A stretch of DNA of 61,700 nt from Methanobacteriota archaeon (lineage in GTDB: Archaea; Thermoplasmatota; Thermoplasmata; RBG-16-68-12). The position numbers and the translations under genes are program-made. The notes under the pieces were generated by a model. The model ran no database searches. It worked only from the letters and a program-made list of their open reading frames with translations, and was not told the DNA's origin. The stretch spans positions 1-61,700 of the forward strand of contig JAIBJG010000013.1 in the NCBI GenBank assembly GCA_020029475.1. The letters are read 5' to 3'. Shown here one piece after another: positions 1 through 15,832 of the stretch. Within the stretch, counting starts at the first letter, position 1. The number at the start of each line of letters is the position of its first letter.

Positions 1-169
1 GGCGGTCCGCAAGCTCAGGGTGCACCCCGCCCGCCAGGAGGGTGGTCCGGAACGCGCTCACGCCGGAGCGGCGCTTCTCGAGGAACCGGAGGAACCCCAT
101 CCCCATGCGGAGGGCGAGGGCGGGGACCTGGACGGCGAACACGAGGGGCAACCGGTCGCCCTCAGGCAT
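1..169 (-). CDS. Hypothetical protein, N-terminal fragment (gene runs off window start)
   Basis: ATG at 169 (minus) opens MPEGDRLPLVFAVQVPALALRMGMGFLRFLEKRRSG... with no stop before position 1. The start overlaps the stop of the 162..515 ORF by 8 nt (operon-like). It is too short in-window to appear in the ORF track. No family recognised. Confidence 0.3.
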   Translation of the reverse strand, partial: MPEGDRLPLVFAVQVPALALRMGMGFLRFLEKRRSGVSAFRTTLLAGGVHPELADR

Positions 170-515
170 CGTCCTCGTCCTTCCCCTTCATTTTCACGCG
201 GATCTCCCGCCGGTCTTCCTCCCCGCCCCGGTGGCGTCCTCGCTCGGACCCCACCGCCCCCTCGATGATCTTCCCGAGGTTCAGGGAGGACATGTACTGC
301 TCCGTGAGACGGAACGCTTGGTCGTCTGTCATCCCGCTGTCCTTCAGGGTGCGGTAGAAGTTCGCGACTGCCTGCCCGTACTTCTCCGCGGACTCCTTTC
401 CGTAAAGGACGTCCGTGAGGCTGTTCAGGAGGGCGGGGACCTTCTCCGAGAAGAGCCCCAGCATCTCCTTCATCTCTTCTGCGTTTGTTCGATGCGACTC
501 ACTCATCCTGTTCAC
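162..515 (-). CDS. Hypothetical small helical protein
   Basis: 117-aa ORF with natural composition (EEMKEMLGLFSEKVPALLNSLTDVLYGKESAEKYGQAVANFYRTLK...). It overlaps the end of the upstream wHTH regulator gene by 17 nt. No family recognised. Confidence 0.55.
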   Translation of the reverse strand: MNRMSESHRTNAEEMKEMLGLFSEKVPALLNSLTDVLYGKESAEKYGQAVANFYRTLKDSGMTDDQAFRLTEQYMSSLNLGKIIEGAVGSERGRHRGGEEDRREIRVKMKGKDEDDA

Positions 516-1017
516 CGTCCGATTTCGTACGTGACCGAGGGGTGTCCTCGTACTTAGGGAATCCGAGCACTTGTGACCAACGGCGCTCGACCTCCGGGGA
601 GACCCGGAACGTGCGGTTCCTCCCTTCCATGGACACGAGGACGAACCCCTGGCGGGCGAGCTCCTCGAGGCGCCTCCGGACGATCCGGCGGGAGGCGGTC
701 CCCCGCCGCTCCTTCACCGCGTCCGTGACCTGGGAGACGTTCCGGTCCCCCCGCTCGAGGAGGACCGCGACGATGTGGCGGGAGATGTCGTCCTTCACCT
801 CGGGGACCGCGAGCCCCGGGGAGACGCCCCCGTACCGCTGGACGAGGTCGAGGATCCGGACGTATCCCCGGGAGAGGCCCTGGAGCTGCTCGACGTACCC
901 GATGAGCTCCGCGTACGGCCTCGCCACCCTCGAGAACGCCTCCCGGAGGGACTCGATCTGCTCCCGGAGCTCGCGGAGGTCCCTTCGGATGTCCTCGCTT
1001 TCCATCCAGGGTCCCAT
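499..1017 (-). CDS. Winged-helix transcriptional regulator with N-terminal coiled-coil
   Basis: Start trimmed to the ATG at 1017 (MGPWMESEDIRRDLRELREQIESLREAF...). The C-terminal half looks like a wHTH (ISRHIVAVLLERGDRNVSQVTDAVKERRGTASRRIVRRRLEELARQGFVLVSMEGRNRTFRVS). The longer ORF-track start at 1215 adds R/A/G-rich sequence that looks non-coding. Confidence 0.65.
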   Translation of the reverse strand: MGPWMESEDIRRDLRELREQIESLREAFSRVARPYAELIGYVEQLQGLSRGYVRILDLVQRYGGVSPGLAVPEVKDDISRHIVAVLLERGDRNVSQVTDAVKERRGTASRRIVRRRLEELARQGFVLVSMEGRNRTFRVSPEVERRWSQVLGFPKYEDTPRSRTKSDGEQDE

Positions 1018-1389
1018 CCCTGCGGAGGGGCTTAACCCCGCGGTTCGGTCCCCTTGGGCGGCCCGGTGAGCGTCTGCTGGACCGCGACGTCCCGACGGAT
1101 CTCCCGCTCGCGGGCGCGCCCGAGATGCCATGCGATCATCCGCGTCTCCGATGCCCACGGACGTGCGGTCCATGTTCTTGTGCTGTGCGGTGATTTGTGA
1201 CCACCCGGCCCTCACGCGTGTTTCGCGGGAAAGGTTCTAGACGAGCGGACACGATGCGGACGCATGGTATCTCATGAGGGAGGCGCGTCCTCTGCGGACG
1301 GATCTCGTTCGTCCGGCTTGAGCAATGCATTGAGCACCTTTGCGGTCGTGTTGGCCGTGATCGCAATCGCCACATCGATCGCAATCTCG

Positions 1390-1554
1390 GGTCCAAGAGG
1401 AGATCCTGGAACACCAGGAACCGCGGGCGACACGGGACCACAGGGACCCGCAGGCCCTGGAGGCCCCACAGGACCACCAGGGTCGGACGGACTCCAGGGA
1501 CCGGGTGGGCCCGCCGGACCCCAAGGACCCGCCGGACCCCAAGGACCGGCGGGT
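1390..1554 (+). repeat. Collagen-like G-X-Y triplet repeat (18 triplets)
   Basis: [55 protein letters not shown] read directly from frame 1. Codons are enriched in GGA/CCA/CCT/AGA, unlike the GC3-rich surroundings. Confidence 0.85.
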
Positions 1555-1575
1555 TTCGGCCTCGAGCGTCCTGGT

Positions 1576-2434
1576 TTCGCGGTCACAGCCATCGACACCG
1601 CGGGCGACGTCGGGCTGTCCACCTCCGTGGCGATCGGATCGGACGGGCTCGGACTAATCAGCTATCAGGACCTCACGAACCACGACCTGAAAATCGCACA
1701 CTGCTCGAACGTGCGCGGCAATCGGCGGCGGGACTTCCGTGACAATCGGCGCCGACGGACTCGGGCTGATCACCTACGAGGGCAGCGGGAACCTCAAGGT
1801 GGCCCACTGCTCCAACGTCGGCTGCACGACGGCGGAAATCAGAACGCTCGACGGAGATCCCGTGGCGAACGTGGGCACGGGCAGCTCCATAACAGTCGGT
1901 GTCGACGGGCTCGGACTCATCAGCTACTGGGACGCCACGAACAGCGACCTCAAGGTCGCGCACTGCATCAACGTGTCCTGCGGGGGCGCGACCAACGTGA
2001 CTCTCGACTCCGCCGGCTCGGTGGGCTGGTGGACCTCCATCGCAATCGGGCGGGATGGACTCGGTCTCATCGCCTACTTCGATGACACGAATCGCGCCGT
2101 CAAGGTCGCCCATTGCGTGGACATGGCCTGCACCGCCGCTAACATCACAACGGTCGATTCCACCAGTCGGTTCAGCCAGGGGCTTTCCGTGACGATCGGT
2201 TCCGACGGATTCGGACTCATCTCCTACTATTACGAGGCCCTCCGGTACGACCTCAAAGTGGCCCACTGCTCGAACGTGCTCTGCACCGCGACGACCAGCG
2301 TGACTGTCGACGACCCGGTCGACGTGGGCTGGTTTAGTTCCGTTACGATTGGGACGGACGGGTTTGGGCTCATCAGCTACTTTGATTCCAACAACCTCGA
2401 CCTCAAAGTGGCTCACTGCTCGAACGTGTACTGC
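1576..2434 (+). repeat. Six tandem blade-like repeats of about 48 aa (blade 2 shortened)
   Basis: The consensus [37 protein letters not shown] recurs six times. Each unit is bracketed by conserved Cys residues. Unit 2 is only about 35 aa and coincides with the frameshift. Confidence 0.75.
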
Positions 2435-2597
2435 ATTCCCTACCATCGAAGTCGCTAGCATCCCCTAGCCGACATGAAGCGTACCAAGCGGGCCGCGGCA
2501 TAGGAGCCGTAGAGATCGCCCCCGTTTGGCGCCTGGGCCGGATCCGGATCTCGACACGTTCCGAACTCCGCGTCGTAGGGCGCACCTCATCCCTCGT

Positions 2598-4007
2598 CTA
2601 CGGCGACATGGGTGCGTCGTGGTCCGGGAGGATCGTCTCCGCGTTGCGGACCGCGCGAACGAAGTACCCGCCGATCCCCACGATCGCCCCGAGGGCGCCG
2701 AAGACGATCAGCATCAGGGCCATCCCGGCGCCCGGACCTGTCCCGACCGCCCACCCGAAGACGCCGGTGAGGCTCCCGCCGACCGCCATCGCGGGCTCGA
2801 AGACCCCGTCGGCAAGGGGGCCGGCGATCACCATCGCGGCGGGCGCCGTGATCTGCGCGATGAGTCGCCGAGCGGCGAACACCTTCCCCTGCACGTCCGG
2901 GGCGACCTTCGCCTGCCAGATCGCCTGGTTCGAGCCGTTGATGAACGGGAGGAGGAAGGACCCGGAGAACGCGGCAATCCCCCAGATCGCGACCTCCCGT
3001 CCGACGCCCATCAGGATCGAGCCGAGGATCCCGGCGAGGGCCATCCCGCCGAGGACCCCGTGGACCCGCCGCTTCGGCCCGCCCCAGAGGCTGAGGGCGA
3101 GCCCGCCCGCGACCCCGCCGATCGCCGCAATCGAGTTCACGGCGCCGAGGACGACGACGTCGTTGCCCGTGCGGGAGAGGATCATCGGGGTGACGACGAT
3201 GAACCCGAGGGGGAAGATGAAATTGATCAGGAAGAACACGAGCTGGAGCCCGAGGAGGCTCCGGCGGGCGGCGATGTACCGGAACCCGTACACGCTCTCG
3301 GAGAGGAGGCTGCCGCGGGCCTTCCGGCCCGTCTCCGTGACCGCGGGCTGCGGGATGTGGACCGCGAGGAGGATGGAGACCGCGATCACGAACGTGACGA
3401 TGTCGATCGCCAGGATCACCGCGATCCCCGGCCCCACCAGGAGGACCCCGAGGATCGCGGCCGCGAAGACCGGGGAGAAGACGCCGGAGATCGACTGGGC
3501 CGTGGAGAGCATCCCGCTCGCCCGCCCGTACTGGGACTTCGGGAGCATCGTGGAGACCGCCGCGGAGTATGCGGGCCACTGGAACGCCTCGAACGCGCCC
3601 TCGAAGGCCCCCAGGACGAACCAGTGCCACACCTGGAGGGCCCCCGGGAGGTAGAGGACCAGGAGGACGATCGTGCCGACCCCCGCCGCGAGGTCGCTGA
3701 GCATCATCGTGAGCTTCCGGTTCCACCGGTCCACGAGCGCGCCCGCGATCGGGCTCAAGATTACGGTCGGTGCAAAGCGGAAGAACGCCGCGAGGGCGAG
3801 GGTCGTCGCCTGGCCCGTCTGGAGGTACGCCCAGATCACGAGGGCGAAGCCCGTCATCCCCGTGCCGAGAAGGGAGAATGTCTGGCCCGCGCACACGAGG
3901 GTGAACGCGCGCATTCCACGGAGGCGGGGCGTCTTCGGTGCGGTGGGCTCCGTCGTGGCGTTCAGGCGGCGTACCTCCCCTCGGGTCCGGGGATCCGCGA
4001 GGCTCAA
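2598..4007 (-). CDS. MFS transporter (EntS/macrolide-efflux-like MFS_3 type)
   Basis: 469-aa polytopic membrane ORF (FTLVCAGQTFSLLGTGMTGFALVIWAYLQTG..., SPIAGALVDRWNRK motif). The start was taken as the TTG at 4007 because it overlaps the TGA of the upstream 30-codon ORF (TTGA). An alternative ATG lies at 3914. Confidence 0.8.
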   Translation of the reverse strand: MSLADPRTRGEVRRLNATTEPTAPKTPRLRGMRAFTLVCAGQTFSLLGTGMTGFALVIWAYLQTGQATTLALAAFFRFAPTVILSPIAGALVDRWNRKLTMMLSDLAAGVGTIVLLVLYLPGALQVWHWFVLGAFEGAFEAFQWPAYSAAVSTMLPKSQYGRASGMLSTAQSISGVFSPVFAAAILGVLLVGPGIAVILAIDIVTFVIAVSILLAVHIPQPAVTETGRKARGSLLSESVYGFRYIAARRSLLGLQLVFFLINFIFPLGFIVVTPMILSRTGNDVVVLGAVNSIAAIGGVAGGLALSLWGGPKRRVHGVLGGMALAGILGSILMGVGREVAIWGIAAFSGSFLLPFINGSNQAIWQAKVAPDVQGKVFAARRLIAQITAPAAMVIAGPLADGVFEPAMAVGGSLTGVFGWAVGTGPGAGMALMLIVFGALGAIVGIGGYFVRAVRNAETILPDHDAPMSP

Positions 4008-4096
4008 CGGATGAGCGGGGCGAACCCCGAGCGCACGTGGGAATCCAGGTACACCGTCATCTCGATTTCCTTTCGGACCGACTTGTCGCGGGACAT
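4004..4096 (-). CDS. 30-codon upstream ORF, copy 1 (MSRDKSVRKEIEMTVYLDSHVRSGFAPLIR)
   Basis: The ATG at 4096 lies 23 nt downstream of a TAAATA box. The stop TGA (4006..4004) overlaps the TTG start of the MFS gene. It is homologous (17/30 identical by hand alignment) to a second copy at 15188..15280. Confidence 0.5.
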   Translation of the reverse strand: MSRDKSVRKEIEMTVYLDSHVRSGFAPLIR

Positions 4097-4119
4097 AGTC
4101 CTCTGGAGATGCCCGCGGC

Positions 4120-4132
4120 TATTTAGGCGAGC
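4120..4132 (-). promoter_or_regulatory. TATA/BRE-like promoter core GCTCGCCTAAATA (copy 1)
   Basis: A 13-nt block identical to 15304..15316. The TAAATA box is followed by exactly 23 nt and then ATG, consistent with a leaderless transcript. Confidence 0.5.
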
Positions 4133-4219
4133 CTCAAGGGAGGGGGCGAGAGGGTCTACCGATGGGGGGACACCCGCAACCCCGGGGTTGAAAAACACGA
4201 TCGATCCCGCCCCGTGCCC

Positions 4220-4936
4220 CTACGAGACGACGACATCGATGAGGAGGAGCTCGGCGTCCGCGTCGGAAACGGTGGTGACGTCCTCCTCGTCCACGATCTT
4301 CGCGGCCCCGAACTGCGGGAGGGATTTGCCCGCCACCGTGATCGGCCCGCCCTCGACGACGTACAGGTACGCGCCGCGGTCCCGGGCAATCTCGTACTCC
4401 AGCGAGCGGCCGTTCTCGAGGAAGCTCGCGTGGACCTGGGCGTCCTGACGGATTGGGAGCGCACCCGGGTGCGTGTTCGAGACGAGGGGGAGCCACCGGT
4501 TCGTCCGCTCCGGCCGCTCCACCGCCTTCTGCTCCACGGAGGGATCGAGCCCCCTCTTCTCCGGGTGGAACCACATCTGGATGAAGCGCATCTCCACGTT
4601 CTTCTTGTGGTTGATCTCGGAGTGCCACATCCCGCGGCCCACGGTCGTGTGCTGGACCCAGCCTTTCTTCAGGATCCCGCCGACGCCGTGCTCGTCCGCG
4701 TGGCGGAACTCCCCCTCCGCGCAGTACGTGACGACCTCGATCTCCCGGTGCGGGTGGAGGGGCCATACGGAGCCCGGGGAGAGGGTGTCGTCATTGAACA
4801 CACGCAGGGTGCCGAACCCCATGTTCTCGGGGTCGTGGTGCTCGCCGAAGCTGAAGTGCCACCGGCCGAGGAACGTGCCGTCCTCGATGACGCCGCTCGC
4901 GAGGTAGATGTCCGCGGGCTTCCGGATCGTGATCAT
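4220..4936 (-). CDS. Pirin-family cupin protein (YhhW-like)
   Basis: WHFSFGEHHDPENMGFGTLRVFNDDTLSPGSVWPLHPHREIEVVTYCAEGEFRH matches the pirin N-terminal cupin and its metal-binding His pattern. The start is set at the ATG at 4936 (MITIRKP...). The ORF-track ATG at 5023 abuts the TATA box. Confidence 0.85.
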   Translation of the reverse strand: MITIRKPADIYLASGVIEDGTFLGRWHFSFGEHHDPENMGFGTLRVFNDDTLSPGSVWPLHPHREIEVVTYCAEGEFRHADEHGVGGILKKGWVQHTTVGRGMWHSEINHKKNVEMRFIQMWFHPEKRGLDPSVEQKAVERPERTNRWLPLVSNTHPGALPIRQDAQVHASFLENGRSLEYEIARDRGAYLYVVEGGPITVAGKSLPQFGAAKIVDEEDVTTVSDADAELLLIDVVVS

Positions 4937-5023
4937 CCCCCGCGCGACTCCGGGATTGGACTTGAACCTTGGGGGCGCGGGAAACAGACCAACATCTTGG
5001 TCCGGAGCGGAGACCCGCCGCAT

Positions 5024-5031
5024 CTATAAGT
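5024..5031 (+). promoter_or_regulatory. TATA-like box (CTATAAGT) upstream of the NFACT gene
   Basis: It is centred about 30 nt upstream of the ATG at 5058. The near-palindromic element could also serve the divergent pirin gene. Confidence 0.4.
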
Positions 5032-5057
5032 AAGCCGACCCGCTTCGGAACCGTCCC

Positions 5058-6953
5058 ATGAAGGAGGCCCTCACGTCCTTCGACCTCATGGCCCTCGTCG
5101 CGGAGTGGCAGGGCCTCGTCGCAGGGTTCGTCGACAAGGTGTACCAGGCGAAGGACGAGGTCACCCTCCGCCTCAACGTCCCCGGGGAAGAGCGGACGGA
5201 GCTGTACTGCAAGGCGGGGAAGTGGCTCGGCCTCCACAAGACGGAGGAGAAGCGCGAGACCCCGGGGCCATTCGCGATGGCCCTCCGGAAGACGATCGAC
5301 AACGCCCGCATCACCGCAATCGAGCAGCCGGGTTTCGACCGCGTCGCAATCCTCCGCCTCGAGAAGGGGGCGACGTACGATCTCGTCTTCGAGATGTTCG
5401 GGAAGGGGAACATCATCCTCGTCCAGGGCGGGAACACGGTCGCCGCGATGCGGACGCAGTCCTTCAAGGGCCGCCAGATCCGGCCCGGGATCGCGTACGA
5501 CTTCCCGCCTCCCGGGACGAACCCTCTCGAGCTCGACCGACAAGGCTTCCACAAGGCGGTCCGGTCCGCAAAAGGGCAGATCGTGAAGGTCCTCGCGTCC
5601 CCCCTGAACCTCGGCGGCACGTACGCGGAGGAACTGTGCCTCCGGGCGGGCGTCACGAAGGACGCGACCGTCGCCTCCCTGAAGGACGCGGACTTCGACG
5701 CCCTCTTCACCGCCCTGAACAACCTCGCCGTGGCGGTGGAGCAGGAGCGCCGGCCCGCCGTCATCCTCGATGGCGGGAAGCCGATCGATGCCGTCCCGAT
5801 CGATCTCCTGATCCACGCGGGGAAGGAACGGCGGGAGTCTCCCACGTTCAACGACGCCCTTTCGTCCTACCTCTCCTCGCTGGCCGCGGAACCCTCCGTC
5901 GCCACGAAGGACGCGACCGCCACCCTCCGGCATCGGATCGAGCAGCTGAAGGAGAACCTTGAGTCCCTCCGGAGGGAGGCGATGGCGGCGGAGGCGAAGG
6001 CGCTGTTCCTGTACAACCACTTCCCCCTCTTCGAGGAGCTCCTCCGGGCGGCGCGGGAGGGCCGCGCGTTCGACGGGGCCCAGATCAAGGGCGTGGACAA
6101 GGAGCGGCACACGGTCACCGTCGCGATCGGGGACTTCGACGACCTGGAGCTCGACTACGACAAGGACGTGAACGGGAACGCGCAGGCTCTATACGAAGCC
6201 CGGCGGGAGGCGCTCCGGAAGGCGGAGCGCGTCGTGGAGGCGATCCAGGCCGCGGAGGACGAGGTCCGCATCGTGGAGAAGAAGGCGGTGCGCGCGGCGA
6301 AGCGCCCGAAGGTGAAGCCCACGAGGCGCCTGTGGTTCGAGGCGTACCGCTGGACCCTCTCCTCGGAGGGATTCCTGATCCTCGGCGGGCGGGACGCGAA
6401 GACGAACGACGCCCTCGTCCGGAAGCACCTGAAGGAGGGAGACCGGTACGCGCACGCGGACGTCCACGGGGCCCCGAGCGTCGTCGTGAAGGACGGGGCG
6501 AAGGCGGGGGAGGCAACCCTGCGGGAGGCGTGCGAGTTCGCCCTGATCTACTCGAAGGCGTGGCCCGCGGGGCTCTCGAGCGGGAGTGCGTTCTGGGTCC
6601 TCCCGGAACAGGTGAGCAAGCAGGCGGAGAGCGGGGAGTTCCTTCCGCGGGGCGGGTTCGTCGTGCGGGGGAAACGGAACTACGTCCACGACATCCCCGT
6701 CCAGATGGCCGTCGGCGAGGTCGAGGTCGAAGGGCACCGCAAGGTGATGGGGGGCCCCGTGAGCGCCCTCGCGGCGCGATCGACGAGGTACGTCGTCCTC
6801 CGCCCTGGGGAAATGGACCGCGACCGGCTCGTCGCGAACCTCGCGAAGGCGTTCGAGGTTCCCGAGGAGGAGGTCTCCCGCGTCCTCCCGTCAGGAGGGT
6901 TCGCGATCCTGAAGGTCCATGGCCTGGAACTCGGGCTCGACGCGGCGGGCTGA
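5058..6953 (+). CDS. NFACT-family ribosome quality-control protein (Rqc2/RqcH/FbpA homolog)
   Basis: 631 aa. It has an NFACT-N-like N-terminus, a central coiled coil, and an NFACT-R/DUF814 block (FLILGGRDAKTNDALVRKHLKEGDRYAHADVHGAPSVVVK). Confidence 0.85.
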   Translation: MKEALTSFDLMALVAEWQGLVAGFVDKVYQAKDEVTLRLNVPGEERTELYCKAGKWLGLHKTEEKRETPGPFAMALRKTIDNARITAIEQPGFDRVAILRLEKGATYDLVFEMFGKGNIILVQGGNTVAAMRTQSFKGRQIRPGIAYDFPPPGTNPLELDRQGFHKAVRSAKGQIVKVLASPLNLGGTYAEELCLRAGVTKDATVASLKDADFDALFTALNNLAVAVEQERRPAVILDGGKPIDAVPIDLLIHAGKERRESPTFNDALSSYLSSLAAEPSVATKDATATLRHRIEQLKENLESLRREAMAAEAKALFLYNHFPLFEELLRAAREGRAFDGAQIKGVDKERHTVTVAIGDFDDLELDYDKDVNGNAQALYEARREALRKAERVVEAIQAAEDEVRIVEKKAVRAAKRPKVKPTRRLWFEAYRWTLSSEGFLILGGRDAKTNDALVRKHLKEGDRYAHADVHGAPSVVVKDGAKAGEATLREACEFALIYSKAWPAGLSSGSAFWVLPEQVSKQAESGEFLPRGGFVVRGKRNYVHDIPVQMAVGEVEVEGHRKVMGGPVSALAARSTRYVVLRPGEMDRDRLVANLAKAFEVPEEEVSRVLPSGGFAILKVHGLELGLDAAG

Positions 6954-7009
6954 CCGGCGGGGCTTCCCGGCAAAGGTTCTCATACCTCGCCCCGGTAGGA
7001 ACCGGTGCC

Positions 7010-7894
7010 ATGGGCGCACGACTCCGCACCGCGGGACTCTTCTTGCTCCTGACGATGATCTTCGTCGGATTCGGCTGGATCATCGGCAGCGTGTTCTTCG
7101 GGAACTGGCTCTCAACCGTCCTCCTCTTCCTCGTCTTCGCGGGGCTGATGAACGGAATCTCGTACTTCTTCGCCGACCGGATCGTCCTCTGGTCGTACCG
7201 GGCCCGCCCGGTGACGGAGGCGGATGCACCGGCCCTCTATCGGGTCGTCCAGAGGGTCGCCGCAATGAGCAACCTTCCGATGCCCCGGGTGTACACCGTG
7301 CCCTCCGCGACCCCGAACGCGTTCGCGACGGGGCGGAACCCGAAGCACGCCGTGGTCGCGGTGACGGAGGGCGCCTTCCGGGTTCTGAACGAACGGGAGC
7401 TCACCGCCGTGATCGCGCACGAGATGGCCCACGTGAAGGACCGGGACATCCTCGTGATGTCTGTCGCGGCCACGATCGCGGGCGCCCTCACGATCCTCGC
7501 GCGGTGGGCGTTCTGGAGCACGCTGTTCGGCGGGGGTCGCCGGGACCGGGAGGGGAACGCCCTCATGTGGGTCCTTGCGATCGTGGGACTGATCCTCGTG
7601 CCGATTGCGGTCGTCCTCATCCAGCTCGCGATCTCTCGGAGCCGGGAGTACAAGGCCGACTATGTCGGGGCAAAGACGATCGGCGCGCCCGACGCGCTCG
7701 CGGACGCGCTGGAGCAGCTCGAGTACCGGAACCGCCTGAACCCGATGGACTTCGGAAGCCCCTCCTCTTCCAGCCTGTGGATCGTCAACCCGTTCGCGGG
7801 GAACTGGCTGTCCCGGATCCAGTCGACCCACCCGCCGGTCGACAAGCGGATCCGAAAGCTCCGCCTCCTCGCTCAAGGGCAGGATACGTACTGA
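7010..7894 (+). CDS. htpX: Zinc metalloprotease HtpX (M48 family)
   Basis: HEMAH zinc motif (VIAHEMAHVKDRD), four TM segments, C-terminal STHPPVDKRI. The start is set at the ATG at 7010. The upstream part of the ORF is R/G/P-rich non-coding-looking sequence overlapping the NFACT gene. Confidence 0.9.
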   Translation: MGARLRTAGLFLLLTMIFVGFGWIIGSVFFGNWLSTVLLFLVFAGLMNGISYFFADRIVLWSYRARPVTEADAPALYRVVQRVAAMSNLPMPRVYTVPSATPNAFATGRNPKHAVVAVTEGAFRVLNERELTAVIAHEMAHVKDRDILVMSVAATIAGALTILARWAFWSTLFGGGRRDREGNALMWVLAIVGLILVPIAVVLIQLAISRSREYKADYVGAKTIGAPDALADALEQLEYRNRLNPMDFGSPSSSSLWIVNPFAGNWLSRIQSTHPPVDKRIRKLRLLAQGQDTY

Positions 7895-7968
7895 CGAGCC
7901 CTGGCAGCAGCCCTCCAGGGGCCCTCCGGGGAAAGGCTAAGTAACCTCCGTCCACTCGGAGGCCCGCC

Positions 7969-8424
7969 GTGGTCGTGAAACTCCTCGACGAACTCGACGT
8001 CGCGATTCTGCGCAGGCTGAACCAGGACGCGCGGAAGAGCTTCCGGGACATCGCGCGGGAGCTGAGGGTGAGCATCAGCACCATCAGCAACCGCGTGAAA
8101 CGGCTCGAGCAGGAGGGGATCATCGTCGGCTACATCCCCGTCCTCGACGAGAAGAAGCTCGGGTACGACGTCCTCGCCGTGATCGGGATCCGGATCTCGA
8201 AGGGGAAGCTCCTCGAGGTCCAGCGGAAGATCGGGCGGGAGGACAAGGTCGTCGACGTGTACGACGTCACGGGCGAGTACGACAGCGTGATCATCGCGCG
8301 CTTCAAGAACACGAAGGAGCTCGACGCGTTCATCAAGCGGCTCGTCGCGATGGAGAACGTCGAGCGGACGTACACGCAGGTCGTCCTGAACGTCGTGAAG
8401 CAGGAGAAACGGTCGCCGATCTAG
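7969..8424 (+). CDS. Lrp/AsnC family transcriptional regulator
   Basis: HTH_AsnC-type N-terminus (LDELDVAILRRLNQDARKSFRDIARELRVSISTISNRVKRLEQEGII) plus a RAM-domain C-terminus. The GTG start lies about 29 nt downstream of CTAAGTAA (7937..7944). Confidence 0.9.
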   Translation: MVVKLLDELDVAILRRLNQDARKSFRDIARELRVSISTISNRVKRLEQEGIIVGYIPVLDEKKLGYDVLAVIGIRISKGKLLEVQRKIGREDKVVDVYDVTGEYDSVIIARFKNTKELDAFIKRLVAMENVERTYTQVVLNVVKQEKRSPI

Positions 8425-8522
8425 GCCGGTTCCTATGGGGAGACCCGGGGGTCCCCGGGAGTTCCATGCACAACTTTTAAGGGGGAGCCTCCCCCTAAGG
8501 AGCTTGACGGAGTGAAGGGGCC

Positions 8523-9188
8523 GTGCCGAACCTTCTCAACTTCAACTCGAACCGGGACCTCGGGTTCTACCACATCCGGGAGCTCCAGTTCGACCTGGAC
8601 CGCCCCCTCGACTTCGACATGAACCGCGAGCTCGTCTTCAACCCGGACCGGGACCTGGGATTCGGAAAAAAGGGGGTCCTCTTCCGCGGGTTTGTGTGCG
8701 AGAAGTGCGACGCGATCGTGTCTGTGGACGCGACCTCGTGCGACGCGTGCGGGGCCGTCTTCGAGAAGCCCAAACTGGTCGGGGTGATGAAAGCGTCGCC
8801 GATGATGACCTCCGACTTCGAGAGGGCGTCGGCCCCAACGACAACCCCCGCCACGAAGCGTGACGGTGCGACCGCCTCTAGCGTTTATCCACCATCGCCG
8901 ACACCGCGGGCGATTCCGCCGACAACGGCCGCCCCTCAGCCTCCAAAGACAGCGCCGCCAACCGCGCCGACCACGGGTTCGGCCTCCCGGTTCTGCCCGA
9001 ACTGCGGCGCCCGCTCGTGGCAAGGAGACGCCTTCTGTTGGAACTGCGGAGCGAGGTTCACGGGGTCGAGCGTGCCGACGCCTCCTTCCGCGGAGAAGGT
9101 CCAGCTTCCCCCGAAGAAAGCGAAGAAAGTCGTGAAGGACTGGCAGGAGACGGGGAAGACGTGGGAGGAGTACTCGGAGGAGAAGTGA
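8523..9188 (+). CDS. Double zinc-ribbon protein with N-terminal 8-aa tandem repeats and a Pro/Thr/Ala-rich linker
   Basis: Two CxxC...CxxC ribbons (FVCEKCDAIVSVDATSCDACGAVFE and RFCPNCGARSWQGDAFCWNCGARF). GTG start. It lies immediately upstream of the NfeD/flotillin pair. Confidence 0.65.
   Translation: MPNLLNFNSNRDLGFYHIRELQFDLDRPLDFDMNRELVFNPDRDLGFGKKGVLFRGFVCEKCDAIVSVDATSCDACGAVFEKPKLVGVMKASPMMTSDFERASAPTTTPATKRDGATASSVYPPSPTPRAIPPTTAAPQPPKTAPPTAPTTGSASRFCPNCGARSWQGDAFCWNCGARFTGSSVPTPPSAEKVQLPPKKAKKVVKDWQETGKTWEEYSEEK
8550..8669 (+). repeat. Five degenerate 24-nt (8-aa) tandem repeats, [ND]R[DE]LxFxx
   Basis: NRDLGFYH / IRELQFDL / DRPLDFDM / NRELVFNP / DRDLGFGK, read in frame from the sequence. 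Confidence 0.7.
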
Positions 9189-9192
9189 TCCG

Positions 9193-9792
9193 ATGGCCGT
9201 CGATCCGGTGTTCGTCTATCTGGTAATTACGATCGTGTTCTCGATCCTCCTGATCACGATGGGGTTCCTCGGAGGGCTGGGGGGAGTCTTCGACATCCAC
9301 CTCGACATCGGCCATGGCATCGATGCGGGCGGCGTCGACGTGGGAGGCGCCGGCCACGACCTCGCGACGGACCAGGGCCAGTTCGCGGGTGCGGGGATCT
9401 CCCCTCTGAGCCTGCCGATCCTGTTCGTCTTCGGGACCTTCTTCGGCGTGTTCGGTACCGTCATGGAAGTCACCCGATTCCTCCCGACGTACGGCGTGCC
9501 GTTCGCAGCGGGCGTCCTCTCCGCGCTCCTCACCGCGATCGTGTACTGGGCGATGGTCAACGTCTTCGTGAAGACCCAGGCCACGAGCGAGTACCGGCTC
9601 AAGGACCTCATCGGGTCTCACGGAGAGATCACCGTGCCCGTAGGACCCGGGAACCGGGGGCAGGTCCTCGTCGTCACGGAGGCGGCGGGACGCACCCTGA
9701 TTTCCGCGGTTTCGAAGGACAGCCTGAAGACGGGCGACCGAGTTCAAGTCACCGGAATGGAGGGAAGCTCCCTCATCGTCGAGAAGGTGTGA
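9193..9792 (+). CDS. NfeD/YqiJ-like membrane protein
   Basis: TM-rich N-terminal part plus a C-terminal OB-like NfeD segment (GEITVPVGPGNRGQVLVVTEAAGRTLISAVSKDSLKTGDRVQVTGMEGSSLIV). It sits directly upstream of a flotillin gene, as in yqiJ-yqiK. Confidence 0.75.
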   Translation: MAVDPVFVYLVITIVFSILLITMGFLGGLGGVFDIHLDIGHGIDAGGVDVGGAGHDLATDQGQFAGAGISPLSLPILFVFGTFFGVFGTVMEVTRFLPTYGVPFAAGVLSALLTAIVYWAMVNVFVKTQATSEYRLKDLIGSHGEITVPVGPGNRGQVLVVTEAAGRTLISAVSKDSLKTGDRVQVTGMEGSSLIVEKV

Positions 9793-9808
9793 AGGGGGAA
9801 GTGAAGGC

Positions 9809-11278
9809 ATGGCAGGCGAAGAGACTATCTTGATCGTGGTGGGCATACTGGGCATCCTGGCCTTCCTGGGACTGGTCGGCGCGTACGCGGCCCGTTACAA
9901 GAAGGTCCCGCCGGATGCGGCGATGGTCGTGTACGGCAGGGGATTCGGAGGAAAGGGATACGACGTCCGGAGGGGCGGCGGGAAGTTCATCGTCCCGATT
10001 CTGGAGAGCTATCGCTTCCTCCCCCTCGGGATCCGGACCCTGGACGTGAACGTGAACGAGCTCGTCACGGACGTCGCGCGGAGCGGCGCCAGGGTGAACG
10101 TGAAGGCCGTCGCACAGGTGCGGATCTCCGACGACGCGGACGTCCTGAGGACGGCGGCGGGGCAGCTCCTCCACAAGACTGACCTCGAGATCAACGAGAT
10201 CGCCCTGAAGACGCTCGAGGGCCACGTCCGTGGCGTGTGCGCGACGCTCACAATCGAGCAGATCAACAGCGAGCGGGACGCGATGGCGTCAAAGATCCTG
10301 ACGATGGCGGGGGAGGACCTCAAGAACATGGGCATCGAGATCCGCTCCTTTGTGATCAAGGAGATCGAGGACGAACACGGCTACCTCGACGCCCTCGGAA
10401 TCAAGAGGACGGAAGAGGTGAAGCGGGACGCCCGCGTCGGGAAGGCGAACGCGAACCGGGAGGCGACGATCGCCGAGGCCATCGCCGCGCAGCAGGCGGA
10501 GAAGGCGAACGCGGACGCGGAGGCGCAGGTCGCCCAATATCACCGGGACCGCGACGTGATTCGGTTCAAGGCGGAGACGGAAGTCGAGACGGAACGGTCG
10601 AACCGGGAGATCGCCTTCCAGATGCAGACCGCCCGCCGGAACCAGGAGCTCGTCGTCGAGCAGACGAAGATCGACATCCGGCAGAAGGAGCAGCAGGTCC
10701 TCGTCCAGACGCAGGAAGTCCTCCGGCGTCAGCAGGAGCAGGCCGCGGATCAGGTCGTCCCCGCGAAGGCGAAGGCGGACGCGGTGGCGGCGGAGGCCGA
10801 CGGCGAGAAGCGCCGGCTCGTGACTACCGCGGAGGGCGAGAAGGAACGCGCAATCCTCGTGGCGGAGGGCGAGAAGGAGCGACTTTCTCGTGTCGCCCAA
10901 GGCGAAGCGGAGCGGATCCGCCAGGAGGGGACCGCGGAGGCGGACATCATCCGGCTCAAGGGCGAGGCGAACGCCTACGCGATCAAGGCGACCGGACTCG
11001 CCGAGGCGGAGGCGATGCGGGCGAAGGCGGCGGCGTGGGAGCAATACGGCAAGGCCGCGATCACGCAGATGATCGTCGAGAAGCTCCCCGAGATCGTCGC
11101 GAACGCCGCGAGGTCCCTCGAGTCCACGGAGAAGCTGATCATCATGGGGGACCGCGGGCCGTCCCAGCTCGTGAGCAGCGTCGTGGACATCGCCGCGACG
11201 GCGCCGGCCCTCGTGAAGAGCCTGACGGGGATGGACCTGTCCGAGCTCGCGGGCAAGCTGAAGGACGTCGTCAAGTAG
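9809..11278 (+). CDS. SPFH/band-7 flotillin-like protein (YqiK/FloT type)
   Basis: N-terminal anchor, SPFH domain, and a long EA-rich coiled coil (AEAIAAQQAEKANADAEAQVAQ..., EGEKERAILVAEGEKERLSRVAQGEAERIRQEG). Confidence 0.9.
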   Translation: MAGEETILIVVGILGILAFLGLVGAYAARYKKVPPDAAMVVYGRGFGGKGYDVRRGGGKFIVPILESYRFLPLGIRTLDVNVNELVTDVARSGARVNVKAVAQVRISDDADVLRTAAGQLLHKTDLEINEIALKTLEGHVRGVCATLTIEQINSERDAMASKILTMAGEDLKNMGIEIRSFVIKEIEDEHGYLDALGIKRTEEVKRDARVGKANANREATIAEAIAAQQAEKANADAEAQVAQYHRDRDVIRFKAETEVETERSNREIAFQMQTARRNQELVVEQTKIDIRQKEQQVLVQTQEVLRRQQEQAADQVVPAKAKADAVAAEADGEKRRLVTTAEGEKERAILVAEGEKERLSRVAQGEAERIRQEGTAEADIIRLKGEANAYAIKATGLAEAEAMRAKAAAWEQYGKAAITQMIVEKLPEIVANAARSLESTEKLIIMGDRGPSQLVSSVVDIAATAPALVKSLTGMDLSELAGKLKDVVK

Positions 11279-11290
11279 GCGGGGCGTCAA

Positions 11291-11750: not shown

Positions 11751-11832
11751 CCCATCACGTCCCTTCTGACGCTGGGACCGCATCCGTCGGGGGTCTATTT
11801 GAGGATTGTGCGGGAGGGAGGAGGCCGCGGGC

Positions 11833-14099: not shown

Positions 14100-15191
14100 T
14101 CAATCCGAGGACGGGCCCTCCGGCGGCACCGGAGGCGCGGGCGGACTCGGCGGGGATGGCGGGGCCGCGGGAGCTGGCGGAGGAGGTGCGCCGCTTCCTC
14201 GGTACCCCGCTTGAGCATCAATGGCCCCGCGGGTCAGGGGCCTGCGTTCCTTCACCTCGGAGGACTCGTGGACGGTGAGGTCGCGGGCCTCGACGGCCCC
14301 GATCCGGCAGTGCGGGCCGATCACGACCTCCTCGCCGACGACGAGGTTCGCGATCGTGCACTCCAGGTTCACCTCGCGGGCCGCGATCCGGTCCGCTCGG
14401 AGTTCGCAGCGGCCGCGGAAGAACCCGCCGGGCCGGCGGACGTTCACCTCTGTCCCGTGGATCACCGGCGCGCTCACGTCCCCGCCGAGTTCGATGTCGA
14501 CCTCCTGGGCCTCGATGGGGCCGCCGAAGTTCCCCCCGCCGGCGAGCCGGAACTCCTGCGCGGTCGTTCGTCCGCCGACGCTCATGCTTCCGCGGACGTG
14601 GACCTCGTGGGCCTCGACGTCCCCGCCGACGGAGAGGGAGCCGGAGCTGTGGACCTCCTGTCCCTTCAGGTCCCCGTTCACCTTGGCGGAGCCCGCGGTG
14701 TGGAACTCCCGCGCGGTCACGTTCCCCTCGAACATGCAGGATCCCGCCGCCTTCGCGAGGTCCGCCTCGAGGTCCCCGGCGACCCGGCCGGACCCCGCGG
14801 ACTTGAACTCGTGGGCGCGCACGGGGTTCCCCGAGACGACGCCCGAACCGACGATCTTCACGTTCCCGTTCCGGGACTGGACCCCCTCGCCGAAGTCCCC
14901 GAAACGCATGCCGGAGATCGCGGGGTCCACGGACTCGCGGATCCTCCGCTCGAGGTCCGGCATGCCCCGGAGCATCGGCTCGACGGACTCGCGGATCGTC
15001 CGCTCGATCAGCATGCCGAGGTCCTCGGGGTGGCCCGCGTGCCCGGCGTGCCCCACCTGCGAGGACTCCTGGGGCTCGGGCTCGTCGGGCTCCGCCTCGT
15101 ACCGGCCCTTGATCTCCACGTACGTCTTCTCGGAGATCTCGCCCCGTGCGAGCCGCTCCTCGAGCCGCCGGAGGATCTCGGACCGCTTCAC
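14100..15191 (-). CDS. SHOCT-like domain plus bactofilin-like (polymer-forming, beta-helical repeat) protein with a Pro-rich tail
   Basis: The GTG start at 15191 overlaps the TGA of upstream ORF copy 2. The N-terminus ILRRLEERLARGEISEKTYVEIKGRY is SHOCT-like. The middle has repeated xEFxxxGSxxVxGD-type segments. The C-terminus is PPPPAPAAPPSPPSPPAPPVPP. Confidence 0.65.
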   Translation of the reverse strand: MKRSEILRRLEERLARGEISEKTYVEIKGRYEAEPDEPEPQESSQVGHAGHAGHPEDLGMLIERTIRESVEPMLRGMPDLERRIRESVDPAISGMRFGDFGEGVQSRNGNVKIVGSGVVSGNPVRAHEFKSAGSGRVAGDLEADLAKAAGSCMFEGNVTAREFHTAGSAKVNGDLKGQEVHSSGSLSVGGDVEAHEVHVRGSMSVGGRTTAQEFRLAGGGNFGGPIEAQEVDIELGGDVSAPVIHGTEVNVRRPGGFFRGRCELRADRIAAREVNLECTIANLVVGEEVVIGPHCRIGAVEARDLTVHESSEVKERRPLTRGAIDAQAGYRGSGAPPPPAPAAPPSPPSPPAPPVPPEGPSSD

Positions 15192-15280
15192 CGCAGCACC
15201 ACGCTGAAGGGTGGGCGGACCTCGACATCGAGGTAGATCGTCATCTCGTGTTCCTTTCCGACCGACTTCTTGCCGGACAT
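15188..15280 (-). CDS. 30-codon upstream ORF, copy 2 (MSGKKSVGKEHEMTIYLDVEVRPPFSVVLR)
   Basis: The ATG at 15280 lies 23 nt downstream of TAAATA. The stop TGA overlaps the GTG start of the downstream gene (GTGA). It is a paralog of 4004..4096. Confidence 0.5.
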   Translation of the reverse strand: MSGKKSVGKEHEMTIYLDVEVRPPFSVVLR

Positions 15281-15303
15281 GAGAGAGACCAAGCACGTGG
15301 GCG

Positions 15304-15316
15304 TATTTAGGCGAGC
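15304..15316 (-). promoter_or_regulatory. TATA/BRE-like promoter core GCTCGCCTAAATA (copy 2)
   Basis: Identical 13-mer and identical 23-nt spacing to the ATG as at 4120..4132. Confidence 0.5.
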
Positions 15317-15409
15317 TTCACGGAGCGCGAAGAAAGCCTCCACGCGTCGGAGGACAACGTCAACCCGAGGGTTGAAGAAGGTTGATTTGCGCCGCGCCGA
15401 TGCGGGCGC

Positions 15410-15832
15410 GTGCCGGACGACCCCCTGGAGCTCATCCGCATCGTGGCCTCCGCGACCCGGCTCCAGATCCTGAAGCTGCTCCAGCAGGGGTTCGACCATC
15501 CCGAGGACCTCGCGAAGAAGATGAAGATCCGCCGCCAGGCAGTGGACAAGCAGCTCGTCGAGCTGTTCGACTGGGGCCTTGTGGACCGGGCCGCGGTGTT
15601 CCCGCCCACGGGCCGGCCCCGGATCGTGTACCAGGTCACGCTGCGGGGGAAGGACCTCGTCGAACTCCTCGACCGCGCGGCGAAGGAGCACCACGACGGA
15701 TTCCGCCAGGACTTCCAGCGGGAGATGGACGACCTCGAGGCGAAGCTTGCGGCGGGGGAGATCGCGGAGGAGATGTACTTCAAGAAGCGAAAGGAGATCG
15801 AGGCCCGCTACAAGCGGGTCGTGGGCCCATGA
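15410..15832 (+). CDS. ArsR-family wHTH regulator with a C-terminal SHOCT-like helix
   Basis: LELIRIVASATRLQILKLLQQGFDHPEDLAKKMKIRRQAVDKQLVELFDWGLV is ArsR/SmtB-like. The C-terminus is LEAKLAAGEIAEEMYFKKRKEIEARY. GTG start. It is divergent from the SHOCT-bactofilin-like gene. Confidence 0.8.
   Translation: MPDDPLELIRIVASATRLQILKLLQQGFDHPEDLAKKMKIRRQAVDKQLVELFDWGLVDRAAVFPPTGRPRIVYQVTLRGKDLVELLDRAAKEHHDGFRQDFQREMDDLEAKLAAGEIAEEMYFKKRKEIEARYKRVVGP

What the first reader, a model, noticed from the sequence alone, without database searches (positions are those of the whole stretch)
4004..4135. Duplicated promoter plus 30-codon upstream-ORF cassette, copy 1, overlapping the start of an MFS transporter
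On the minus strand, GCTCGCCTAAATA is followed by exactly 23 nt and then a 30-codon ORF, MSRDKSVRKEIEMTVYLDSHVRSGFAPLIR. Its TGA overlaps a TTG start of the MFS gene (TTGA). The same 13-mer, the same 23-nt spacing and a homologous peptide occur 11 kb away at 15188..15316, in front of an unrelated gene. That peptide is MSGKKSVGKEHEMTIYLDVEVRPPFSVVLR, 17/30 identical by my hand alignment, with about 83% nt identity over the first 54 nt. Several differences are synonymous (CTG/CTC, GTG/GTC, CGT/CGG) or conservative (V/I, I/L), which favours a translated peptide over a purely RNA element. TATA-to-ATG spacing implies a leaderless mini-ORF. I do not recognise this peptide family. It could be a regulatory leader peptide or a shared cis-regulatory module defining a small regulon.
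Basis: seen in the sequence. Interest (0 to 1): 0.75.

Follow-up and report, generated by a model that had tools for sequence, protein, structure and literature searches.

The report
Duplicated archaeal promoter plus 30-codon ORF
A soil archaeon carries two copies of a 190-bp unit (a probable regulator-binding site, a promoter and a translated 30-codon mini-gene): the original sits in front of a cytoskeleton-type (bactofilin) gene and the copy drives a transporter gene that probably came from bacteria, which makes it a tidy but not revolutionary case of promoter reuse.

Summary

The organism is an uncultured Thermoplasmata archaeon. The 13-mer is a BRE/TATA promoter that places the ATG at the expected transcript 5' end, so the ORF is leaderless. 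The homology also extends upstream to an invariant-arm palindrome, CAACC-N4-GGTTG.

Copy 2 is the ancestral locus. It lies between a conserved divergent wHTH regulator and a SHOCT-like/bactofilin gene. In all 17 distinct related loci read, the upstream ORF (30 codons, or 59-68 in distant relatives) ends in a 4-nt stop/start overlap with that gene.

Copy 1 is a derived duplicate in front of a DHA3 MFS transporter that is 60-69% identical to Chloroflexota proteins.

The ORF looks translated:
- dN/dS is 0.31 and 0.45 in frame, against 0.85-3.9 out of frame.
- All indels are whole codons.
- 23 peptide clusters of 29-31 aa were found, in only these two contexts.

The MFS more likely starts 38 nt (SD-preceded CTG) or 89 nt (ATG) downstream.

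No Pfam, Rfam or significant RNA-structure match was found. The role of the peptide is untested.

The parts
4177..4190 (-). Copy 1 palindrome CAACCCCGGGGTTG (CAACC-N4-GGTTG), a putative operator. Its centre lies about 87 nt upstream of the mini-ORF ATG.
   Evidence: The arms are invariant in 10 of 12 related loci while the 4 central bases vary. The spacing to the TATA box is the same in both paralogues.
4120..4132 (-). Copy 1 BRE/TATA 13-mer GCTCGCCTAAATA. The TATA box CCTAAATA is centred about -27 from the ATG.
   Evidence: The 13-mer is invariant in the 6 copy-2 orthologues (0/13 variable sites) and nearly invariant in copy-1 orthologues.
4004..4096 (-). Copy 1 leaderless 30-codon ORF MSRDKSVRKEIEMTVYLDSHVRSGFAPLIR plus TGA.
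   Evidence: In the copy-1 group, dN/dS is 0.31 in frame against 1.38 and 3.94 out of frame, and variable sites by codon position are 7:4:15.
3915..4003 (-). 89-nt stretch between the mini-ORF stop and the MFS ATG. It contains an SD-like GGAGG (3978-3974) followed 8 nt later by a CTG (3965-3963) in the MFS frame.
   Evidence: The CTG-to-ATG distance is 51, 93 or 48 nt in different lineages, always a multiple of 3. The distance from the mini-ORF stop to the CTG is 38, 37, 34, 28 or 14 nt.
2598..3914 (-). DHA3-type MFS transporter (438 aa from the ATG; possibly 455 aa from the CTG at 3965).
   Evidence: It is 60-69% identical to proteins named as Chloroflexota (Anaerolineae, Dehalococcoidia).
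15361..15374 (-). Copy 2 palindrome CAACCCTCGGGTTG, a putative operator lying between the two divergent promoters.
15304..15316 (-). Copy 2 BRE/TATA 13-mer.
15188..15280 (-). Copy 2 leaderless 30-codon ORF MSGKKSVGKEHEMTIYLDVEVRPPFSVVLR plus TGA. The stop overlaps the GTG start of the next gene (GTGA).
   Evidence: dN/dS is 0.45 in frame against 0.85 and 1.16 out of frame.
14100..15191 (-). SHOCT-like N-terminus plus bactofilin-domain protein (363 aa). It is the gene coupled to copy 2.
15410..15832 (+). Divergent 140-aa winged-helix (ArsR-like) regulator with a C-terminal helix. It is the candidate binder of the palindrome.
   Evidence: It is 70-76% identical and divergently placed in all 11 genome loci that keep the region upstream of the bactofilin gene.

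Best explanation
This is a roughly 190-bp archaeal expression module. It consists of a palindromic operator (CAACC-N4-GGTTG), a BRE/TATA promoter and a leaderless, translated 30-codon first cistron.

Ancestral locus (copy 2). The module lies between a conserved divergent wHTH regulator gene and a SHOCT-like/bactofilin gene. Transcription is expected to start at or within a base or two of the ATG. The ribosome loads on the 5'-terminal AUG, reads 30 codons and terminates on a UGA that overlaps the bactofilin start codon (GTGA or ATGA). Bactofilin synthesis is therefore coupled to mini-ORF translation by termination-reinitiation.

Derived locus (copy 1). The whole module, from the operator to the stop codon, was duplicated in front of a DHA3 MFS transporter gene that probably came from bacteria. 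This gave that gene an archaeal promoter and put it under the same operator. At this copy the mini-ORF is a true upstream ORF. The MFS is most likely initiated independently, at an SD-preceded CTG or at the downstream ATG.

Shown here: the sequence anatomy, its conservation, the coding-type substitution pattern, the two genomic contexts and the polarity of the duplication.

Inferred: the transcription start site, binding of the neighbouring regulator to the palindrome, the coupling itself, and any role of the peptide sequence.
For: Anatomy and duplication.

Organism and orthologous loci.

Leaderless geometry:
- The TATA box is centred about -27 from the ATG, with a 23-nt spacer (22 nt in two loci) in every locus read.
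- Many other genes in the window have an A/T-rich box 22-25 nt upstream of their start codon.

Translation:
- dN/dS is 0.31 (copy-1 group) and 0.45 (copy-2 group) in frame, against 0.85-3.94 in the other two frames.
- Conserved residues T, Y, L, R and F carry synonymous codon differences.
- All length variants are whole codons, 29-31 aa, while the adjacent non-coding spacers show 1-nt indels.
- The internal ATG (M13) is GTC, GTG or AAG in relatives, so it is not the start.

Coupling at copy 2:
- All 17 distinct related loci upstream of the bactofilin gene (6 with the 30-codon form counting the window, 9 with a 59-68-codon form, plus near-identical duplicates) have the TATA-proximal ATG in frame with a stop that overlaps the [AG]TG start.
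- ATGA-type overlaps give strict coupling in Haloferax volcanii and E. coli (PMC6728339).

Operator:
- The arms are invariant and the centre variable in 12 loci. The spacing to the TATA box is retained in the paralogue that has no regulator gene next to it.
- The regulator is always divergent at the ancestral locus.

Polarity of the duplication:
- The regulator, mini-ORF and bactofilin arrangement extends to relatives whose bactofilin is only 45-52% identical.
- The MFS copy is confined to the close clade. Its earliest-branching form (L030) still has a copy-2-like promoter flank.

Only two contexts:
- The profile search found 23 clusters. Every context inspected is either bactofilin or MFS.
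Against: - No transcriptome or ribosome-profiling data exist for this uncultured lineage, so the transcription start and translation are both inferred.
- In the copy-2 group, variable sites are spread 6:7:9 over the codon positions. Synonymous divergence (0.24) is about half that of the neighbouring genes (0.36-0.54). This points to an added nucleotide-level constraint and only moderate peptide-level selection.
- The copy-2 mini-ORF is no better conserved (85% between the window and L022, counted) than the surrounding 6 kb (89.8%).
- At copy 1 there is no stop/start overlap. Coupling is lost beyond about 20 nt in the tested systems (PMC10666635). 'Needed for coupling' therefore cannot explain why the copy-1 peptide is still under purifying selection.
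- Distant relatives lack the CAACC palindrome. They carry TCTCC-N6-GGAGA instead, so assigning the palindrome to the neighbouring regulator is circumstantial.
Confidence: 0.62

Rival explanations
1. The 30-aa product is a micro-protein that acts in trans. It could be a partner of the bactofilin protein, for example a strand-like cap or assembly factor, or a partner of the wHTH regulator. On this reading the second copy simply supplies more of it, or a diverged version.
For: - Both paralogues are under purifying selection and share a conserved core, T[IV]YL[DEN]xx[VAI]Rx[PG]F.
- 4-nt overlaps are enriched among subunits of heteromeric complexes (PMC10666635).
- In distant relatives the 59-68-aa positional equivalent has protein-like conserved N- and C-termini.
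- In Bacillus, a regulator of bactofilin genes binds bactofilins directly (PMC13649987).
Against: - The AlphaFold model of the peptide is unstructured (pLDDT 66, no secondary structure).
- There is no family match.
- The long and short forms are barely alignable.
- The C-terminal conservation of the long forms (RW-x-R) coincides with an SD-like GGTGG and the overlapping start. Their KE-x-YF motif coincides with an A/T-rich box. Part of the 'protein' conservation may therefore be at the nucleotide level.
Confidence: 0.25
2. The mini-ORF is a regulatory leader peptide that acts in cis. Ribosome stalling on the nascent chain or at its stop codon, in response to a small molecule, would control expression of the downstream gene. 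This would be analogous to bacterial leader peptides of macrolide-resistance genes.
For: - At copy 1 the ORF is a genuine upstream ORF in a roughly 130-180-nt leader of a DHA3 (macrolide-efflux-like) MFS gene.
- The peptide sequence, including the terminal Arg before the stop, is conserved even where there is no overlap with the next gene.
- A hairpin spanning the stop codon is predicted in copy-1 orthologues.
Against: - Folding energies are not better than shuffled controls (z from -1.5 to +1.7), and the covariation term is about zero.
- There is no oligo-T terminator and no alternative-structure pair.
- The module originated at a bactofilin operon, where drug sensing has no obvious rationale.
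- There is no Rfam hit.
Confidence: 0.1
3. The conserved sequence is a purely cis-acting DNA or RNA element (a downstream promoter or operator element, or a 5' mRNA signal), and the open frame is incidental in a genome with 67% G+C.
For: - Synonymous divergence in the copy-2 ORF is lower than in flanking genes, and variable sites show no clear 3-periodicity there.
- Long open frames are common by chance at this G+C content.
Against: - In-frame dN/dS is lower than out-of-frame dN/dS in both groups, and periodicity is clear in the copy-1 group (7:4:15).
- Only whole-codon indels are seen in the ORF, against 1-nt indels just downstream.
- The frame from the TATA-proximal ATG to the overlapping stop is preserved across at least 6 length classes (30, 59, 61, 66, 67, 68 codons).
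- A 5'-terminal AUG on a leaderless mRNA would be expected to be translated in any case.
Confidence: 0.08

Closest known systems
Translationally coupled overlapping gene pairs (termination-reinitiation at ATGA/GTGA), as tested in Haloferax volcanii and E. coli (PMC6728339, PMC10666635)
   Same: Copy 2 and all its orthologues have a 4-nt stop/start overlap between the mini-ORF and the bactofilin gene. An SD-like GGTG(G) lies 5-8 nt upstream of the downstream start.
   Different: The upstream partner here is only 30 codons and is the leaderless first cistron. Copy 1 has no overlap (38-89 nt to the next start), a distance at which coupling was essentially lost in the tested pairs.
Bacterial regulatory leader peptides and upstream ORFs of resistance or efflux genes (erm and mef-type leaders; peTrpL, PMC7298713)
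   Same: A short conserved ORF sits in the 5' leader of an efflux-type MFS gene (copy 1).
   Different: It is archaeal and leaderless, with no demonstrable attenuator structure and no known arrest motif. The same ORF family primarily precedes a cytoskeletal gene.
Leaderless archaeal BRE/TATA promoters with an adjacent palindromic operator for a divergently encoded wHTH (ArsR/TrmB-like) regulator
   Same: The TATA box is centred about -27 from the start codon. The palindrome has invariant arms and a variable centre and sits between divergent promoters. The regulator gene is next to its target.
   Different: The operator, promoter and first cistron were copied together as one unit to a second locus. 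Binding has not been shown.
BacR (YhbD)-bactofilin regulatory switch of Bacillus subtilis (PMC13649987)
   Same: A small DNA-binding regulator is encoded next to bactofilin genes and controls them.
   Different: The regulator belongs to an unrelated family (DUF4004 against wHTH), the domain of life differs, and no interaction data exist here. The analogy is only a lead.

Membership tests
Archaeal leaderless BRE/TATA promoter | A/T-rich TATA box centred about 26-27 nt upstream of the transcription start, with the start codon at the transcript 5' end | tested here: met
   CCTAAATA spans -31 to -24 relative to the ATG, with a 23-nt spacer (22 nt in L027 and L029) in every locus. The same geometry is seen at many other genes of the window. 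This is sequence geometry only.
Archaeal leaderless BRE/TATA promoter | Mapped transcription start at the A of the ATG | not testable with these tools
   No transcriptome data are available for this uncultured lineage.
Termination-reinitiation coupled gene pair | Stop and start codons overlap by 4 nt or 1 nt | tested here: met
   For copy 2: GTGA in the window, and ATGA or GTGA in all related loci.
Termination-reinitiation coupled gene pair | Stop and start codons overlap by 4 nt or 1 nt (copy 1 with the MFS gene) | tested here: not met
   The TTGA in the window is not conserved (CTGA, or out of frame, in orthologues). The next plausible start is 38 nt (CTG) or 89 nt (ATG) downstream.
Termination-reinitiation coupled gene pair | Downstream translation depends on upstream translation | not testable with these tools
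   This needs reporter constructs with premature stops.
Attenuator-type regulatory leader peptide | Short ORF inside the 5' leader of the regulated gene | tested here: met
   Met at copy 1. At copy 2 it is better described as an overlapping first cistron.
Attenuator-type regulatory leader peptide | Conserved alternative RNA structures or a terminator that respond to ribosome position | tested here: not met
   The RNAalifold covariation term is -0.23. z-scores for 14 junction regions range from -1.5 to +1.7. There is no oligo-T tract.
Attenuator-type regulatory leader peptide | Ligand- or amino-acid-dependent ribosome stalling | not testable with these tools
   There are no runs of a regulatory amino acid in the peptide. 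Stalling can only be tested experimentally.
Curated protein families (Pfam-A) | Significant profile match to the peptide | tested here: not met
   No family matched either the 30-aa or the 67-aa forms, even at E up to 1. All database relatives are unnamed or labelled 'hypothetical protein'.
Curated RNA families (Rfam 15) | Covariance-model match | tested here: not met
   No match at E up to 1 in window 1-20000.
wHTH-regulator operator | Dyad-symmetric site with conserved arms and a free centre, close to the regulator gene | tested here: met
   CAACC-N4-GGTTG: 2 substitutions in 120 arm positions across 12 loci, while all 4 central columns vary. It abuts the regulator's own putative BRE/TATA.
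wHTH-regulator operator | Binding by the neighbouring regulator | not testable with these tools
   This needs EMSA, footprinting or DAP-seq.

The most novel reading that the evidence does not exclude
The conserved peptide may be an active third component of a regulator-bactofilin circuit. It could act as a nascent-chain sensor, or as a micro-protein that binds the wHTH regulator or the bactofilin through their shared SHOCT-like helices. The operator-promoter-mini-ORF unit would then work as a portable 'plug-in' that lets leaderless-mRNA archaea express and co-regulate genes acquired from bacteria.
Probability: 0.15. Interest if true: 0.65.

Novelty: new member of a known kind. Interest (0 to 1): 0.4.

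Why it matters
It gives a concrete, comparatively well-supported example of a translated leaderless mini-ORF family in uncultured Thermoplasmata. It also shows how a complete expression module (operator, promoter and first cistron) can be copied to wire a probably bacterial transporter gene into an existing archaeal regulatory unit. In addition it yields testable predictions about an archaeal regulator-bactofilin pair, and about a possible SD-dependent CTG start. It does not reveal a new kind of mechanism.

Tried and rejected
- Third copy in the window. The nhmmer/tblastn hit at 61178-61226 lies inside a 189-aa dienelactone-hydrolase-like ORF, so it is chance.
- Internal ATG (M13) preceded by AAGGAA as the real start. 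The codon is GTC, GTG or AAG in relatives.
- Long ORF 14100..15296 from the GTG at 15296 as the real bactofilin start. That GTG lies between the TATA box and the ATG in the variable spacer and is absent in orthologues.
- TTG at 4007 as the MFS start. It is not conserved.
- Conserved RNA structure or a known RNA family. Nothing scored above controls. A CUUCA...UGAAG hairpin over the bactofilin start recurs in some loci but not all.
- First genome-contig scan with the 2-peptide alignment. It found no relatives because the patterns were too strict.
- The search for homologous proteins refuses queries shorter than 40 aa. I got round this with a profile padded by the 13 in-frame upstream codons.
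- L016/L019, which appeared to place the peptide in front of an OpuAC gene, is a chimeric contig that matches the window for only 831 nt.
- The AlphaFold model of the peptide is low confidence with no secondary structure.
- BLASTP between the regulator and the bactofilin protein is not significant. The SHOCT-like resemblance (9/15 identical) was judged by eye only.
Full report
OBSERVATION. All coordinates in this paragraph are on the minus strand. GCTCGCCTAAATA occurs at 4120-4132 and 15304-15316 and nowhere else in the window, even with two mismatches allowed. Each 13-mer is followed by 23 nt and then an ATG that opens a 30-codon ORF: 4096..4007 with TGA at 4006-4004, and 15280..15191 with TGA at 15190-15188. 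Within the window the two find each other by tblastn at E = 9.5e-7. nhmmer with a model of both copies finds no credible third copy; a weak hit at 61178-61226 lies inside a hydrolase-like ORF.

ORGANISM AND SURROUNDINGS. The window is 64-72% G+C. Relatives of the gene downstream of copy 2 come from Thermoplasmata and Methanomassiliicoccales-type MAGs. Contigs that are 99.8-100% identical to the window occur in several JGI metagenomes, where the gene callers called both 30-aa ORFs.
- Copy 2 lies between two genes. One is a divergent 140-aa winged-helix regulator (15410-15832, + strand; weak ArsR, HxlR and HVO_A0261_N matches). The other is a 363-aa protein with a SHOCT-like N-terminus and a bactofilin domain (14100-15191, minus strand).
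- Copy 1 lies between a pirin gene (4220-5023) and a DHA3-type MFS transporter.

THE PROMOTER. With a 23-nt spacer, the box CCTAAATA is centred about 27 nt upstream of the A of the ATG. By established knowledge of archaeal promoters, that is the distance from a TATA box to the transcription start. The ATG should therefore sit at the 5' end of the mRNA. A survey of the likely genes in the window found many other start codons preceded by an A/T-rich box at the same distance, for example ctataagta-N24-ATG at 5058 and ttttataagg-N24-GTG at 14052. Leaderless transcripts thus appear to be the norm in this genome. In six copy-2 orthologues the 13-mer is invariant (0/13 variable sites). In contrast, 17 of the 23 spacer positions vary, without any indel. 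Two copy-1 orthologues have a 22-nt spacer.

THE COPY-2 LOCUS IS ANCESTRAL AND WIDELY CONSERVED. Twelve GTDB genome loci and the metagenome loci were read.
- In close relatives (bactofilin 77-80% identical), the same 30-codon ORF follows the same 13-mer. It ends in ATGA or GTGA overlapping the bactofilin start.
- In distant relatives (bactofilin 45-52% identical), a homologous promoter (GGCTTGCATAAGTA plus 23 nt) opens a longer ORF of 59-68 codons, which again ends in ATGA on the bactofilin start.
- The TATA-proximal ATG is therefore in frame with the overlapping stop across at least six length classes (30, 59, 61, 66, 67, 68 codons). Frame-neutral indels would not be expected to produce this.
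- The regulator gene is divergent from this ORF in all 11 genome loci that keep the upstream region. At 70-76% identity it is better conserved than the bactofilin protein.
- The long forms make up a small family of 18 database clusters, all unnamed or 'hypothetical', with no Pfam domain. They have a conserved N-terminus (MYxxKTAGI..LMNALS), a variable Arg-rich middle and a conserved C-terminus (KE[MT]YF..AR..RWxR).
- The short and long forms are positional equivalents and are barely alignable.

THE COPY-1 LOCUS IS DERIVED. A related 56.6-kb contig carries both copies about 11.7 kb apart, so the duplication predates that split. Orthologues of the MFS at 72-94% identity all have the module directly upstream, after either a pirin or a cyclase gene. 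The most divergent of them, L030, has a 29-codon ORF. Its promoter flank resembles copy 2, while the C-terminal half of its peptide resembles copy 1. That pattern fits an origin of copy 1 by duplication of the copy-2 region. Homology between the two copies begins at the palindrome and ends at the stop codon. Beyond the Thermoplasmata clade, the MFS is 60-69% identical to proteins labelled Chloroflexi, Anaerolineae or Dehalococcoidia. I take this as a probable acquisition from bacteria, but I built no tree to test it.

IS THE MINI-ORF TRANSLATED? The evidence favours translation with moderate purifying selection on the peptide.
- Nei-Gojobori estimates give dN/dS of 0.31 for five copy-1 orthologues, against 1.38 and 3.94 in the other two frames. 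For six copy-2 orthologues the value is 0.45, against 0.85 and 1.16.
- Variable sites by codon position are 7:4:15 in the copy-1 group, which is coding-like, but 6:7:9 in the copy-2 group.
- Conserved residues carry synonymous codon differences: T ACG/ACC, Y TAC/TAT, L CTC/CTG, R CGC/CGG and F TTC/TTT.
- A padded-profile search of the 5.8-billion-cluster protein database found 23 clusters. All are 29-31 aa from the ATG, so every indel is a whole codon. The spacer just downstream of copy 1 shows 1-nt indels.
- The internal Met13 is Val or Lys in relatives, so the first ATG is the start.
- Caveats: synonymous divergence in the copy-2 ORF (0.24) is lower than in the bactofilin gene (0.36-0.54). 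The ORF as a whole is no better conserved than its surroundings. Some constraint therefore acts at the nucleotide level, and selection on the peptide is only moderate.

THE PUTATIVE OPERATOR. In 12 loci the arms CAACC and GGTTG show two substitutions in 120 positions, while the four central bases vary freely. This is the pattern expected of a site bound by a dimeric regulator. Its centre is about 61 bp upstream of the TATA centre of the mini-ORF promoter. At copy 2 it abuts the regulator's own putative BRE/TATA (GAAGAAGGTTGATTT, 21 nt before the GTG at 15410). Copy 1 has no regulator gene next to it but keeps the palindrome at the same spacing. Distant relatives carry a different invariant-arm palindrome, TCTCC-N6-GGAGA. 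Their regulators differ in the predicted recognition helix (RRTSVDKQ against RRQAVDKQ). This is compatible with co-evolution of regulator and site but does not prove it. No other occurrence of the palindrome is found in the 61.7-kb window.

THE MFS START. The codon is CTG in L025, L027 and L029, and in L028 a 1-nt indel puts the TTG out of frame. Gene callers and most homologues start at the ATG at 3914. However, bacterial homologues have 12-22 residues before the GM-x-F motif. In addition, six lineages keep a GGAGG followed 6-8 nt later by a CTG in the MFS frame. The CTG-to-ATG distance is 51, 93 or 48 nt in different lineages, always a multiple of three, whereas the distance from the stop to the CTG is 38, 37, 34, 28 or 14 nt. 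The MFS may therefore start at an SD-led CTG (3965-3963). Either way the gap is too long for termination-reinitiation as measured in H. volcanii and E. coli, where about 20 nt almost abolishes it (PMC10666635).

MECHANISM.
- Best-supported model. The neighbouring wHTH regulator binds the palindrome and controls three promoters: its own and the two mini-ORF promoters. Transcripts start at the ATG. The 30 codons are translated. At copy 2, termination on the overlapping UGA hands the ribosome to the bactofilin start (PMC6728339). At copy 1, the module mainly supplies promoter and operator to a foreign gene that initiates on its own.
- Shown: the anatomy, the conservation, the coding signature, the two contexts and the polarity of the duplication.
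- Inferred: the transcription start, regulator binding, the coupling and any function of the peptide.
- Unexplained: the copy-1 peptide stays under purifying selection without an overlap, so the peptide sequence itself probably matters. That keeps two rivals alive, a trans-acting micro-protein and a cis-acting leader peptide.
- Against a structured RNA or attenuator: no Rfam match, no covariation, and folding energies within the range of shuffled sequences.
- The peptide model is unstructured.

COMPARISON AND NOVELTY. The parts are all of known kinds: a leaderless BRE/TATA promoter, a dyad operator next to a divergent wHTH regulator gene, a 4-nt overlap for coupling, and an upstream ORF. The peptide family itself is undescribed, with no Pfam match and only 'hypothetical' labels. 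The copying of operator, promoter and first cistron as one unit in front of a probably horizontally acquired transporter is a neat and little-documented route of promoter capture in archaea. A Bacillus regulator that controls and binds bactofilins (PMC13649987) is an analogy worth testing for the regulator-bactofilin pair here. I rate this a new member of a known kind, of moderate interest.

Noticed in passing
window 3963-3978 (minus strand); L027, L028, L029, L030, L034, L036 spacers: A conserved SD-like GGAGG lies 6-8 nt upstream of a CTG that is in frame with the MFS ATG in six lineages. The CTG-to-ATG distance is always a multiple of 3 (48, 51 or 93 nt). This suggests a non-canonical, SD-dependent CTG start for the transporter.
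   Followed up: partly
L025:3090-3230 against window 1205-3930: On the related contig the MFS gene is deleted. Its first codons are fused to its last ~12 codons (ETILPDHDA) at a GRAGACG microhomology. A further ~1.4 kb (window ~1215-2600) is also absent. The copy-1 mini-ORF is still intact there.
   Followed up: partly
window 2598-3914 (minus strand): The DHA3 MFS transporter is 60-69% identical to proteins labelled Chloroflexi, Anaerolineae or Dehalococcoidia. This suggests inter-domain gene transfer; no phylogeny was built.
   Followed up: partly
window 15725-15805 (+ strand, regulator C-terminus) and 15100-15185 (minus strand, bactofilin N-terminus): The regulator (LEAKLAAGEIAEEMYFKKRKEIEARY) and the bactofilin protein (LEERLARGEISEKTYVEIKGRYEAE) share a SHOCT-like helix motif by eye (9/15 identical). 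BLASTP does not score it and Pfam SHOCT is below threshold. It could be an interaction surface.
   Followed up: partly
L003-L011, about 230-260 nt upstream of the bactofilin ATG: Distant relatives have an invariant-arm palindrome TCTCC-N6-GGAGA instead of CAACC-N4-GGTTG. Their regulators differ at two residues of the predicted recognition helix (TS against QA).
   Followed up: partly
L004, L006, L008, L009, L010: 35-45 nt upstream of the bactofilin ATG (L007: 56-61 nt): The conserved KE-x-YF motif of the long upstream ORFs coincides with an A/T-rich box (AAGGAAAnnTATTT) in an otherwise G+C-rich region. This could be an internal promoter for the bactofilin gene rather than protein-level conservation.
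   Followed up: no
window, e.g. 14052 (minus strand), 42101 (minus strand), 7969 (+), 22565 (minus strand): Many apparent leaderless genes in this genome have GTG or TTG rather than ATG at the TATA-proximal start. This is unusual compared with what is known from haloarchaea. The start assignments are mine and unverified.
   Followed up: no
L016 / L019 (JGI Ga0209843_1010956): This is a chimeric metagenome contig. It is identical to the window for 831 nt, then switches inside the bactofilin gene to an unrelated OpuAC-type gene.
   Followed up: yes
window 4192-4196 (minus strand), just upstream of the copy-1 palindrome: A T5 run follows the pirin stop codon (4220) and is conserved as T3-T5 in orthologues. 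It is probably the pirin terminator and marks the 5' edge of the duplicated module.
   Followed up: no
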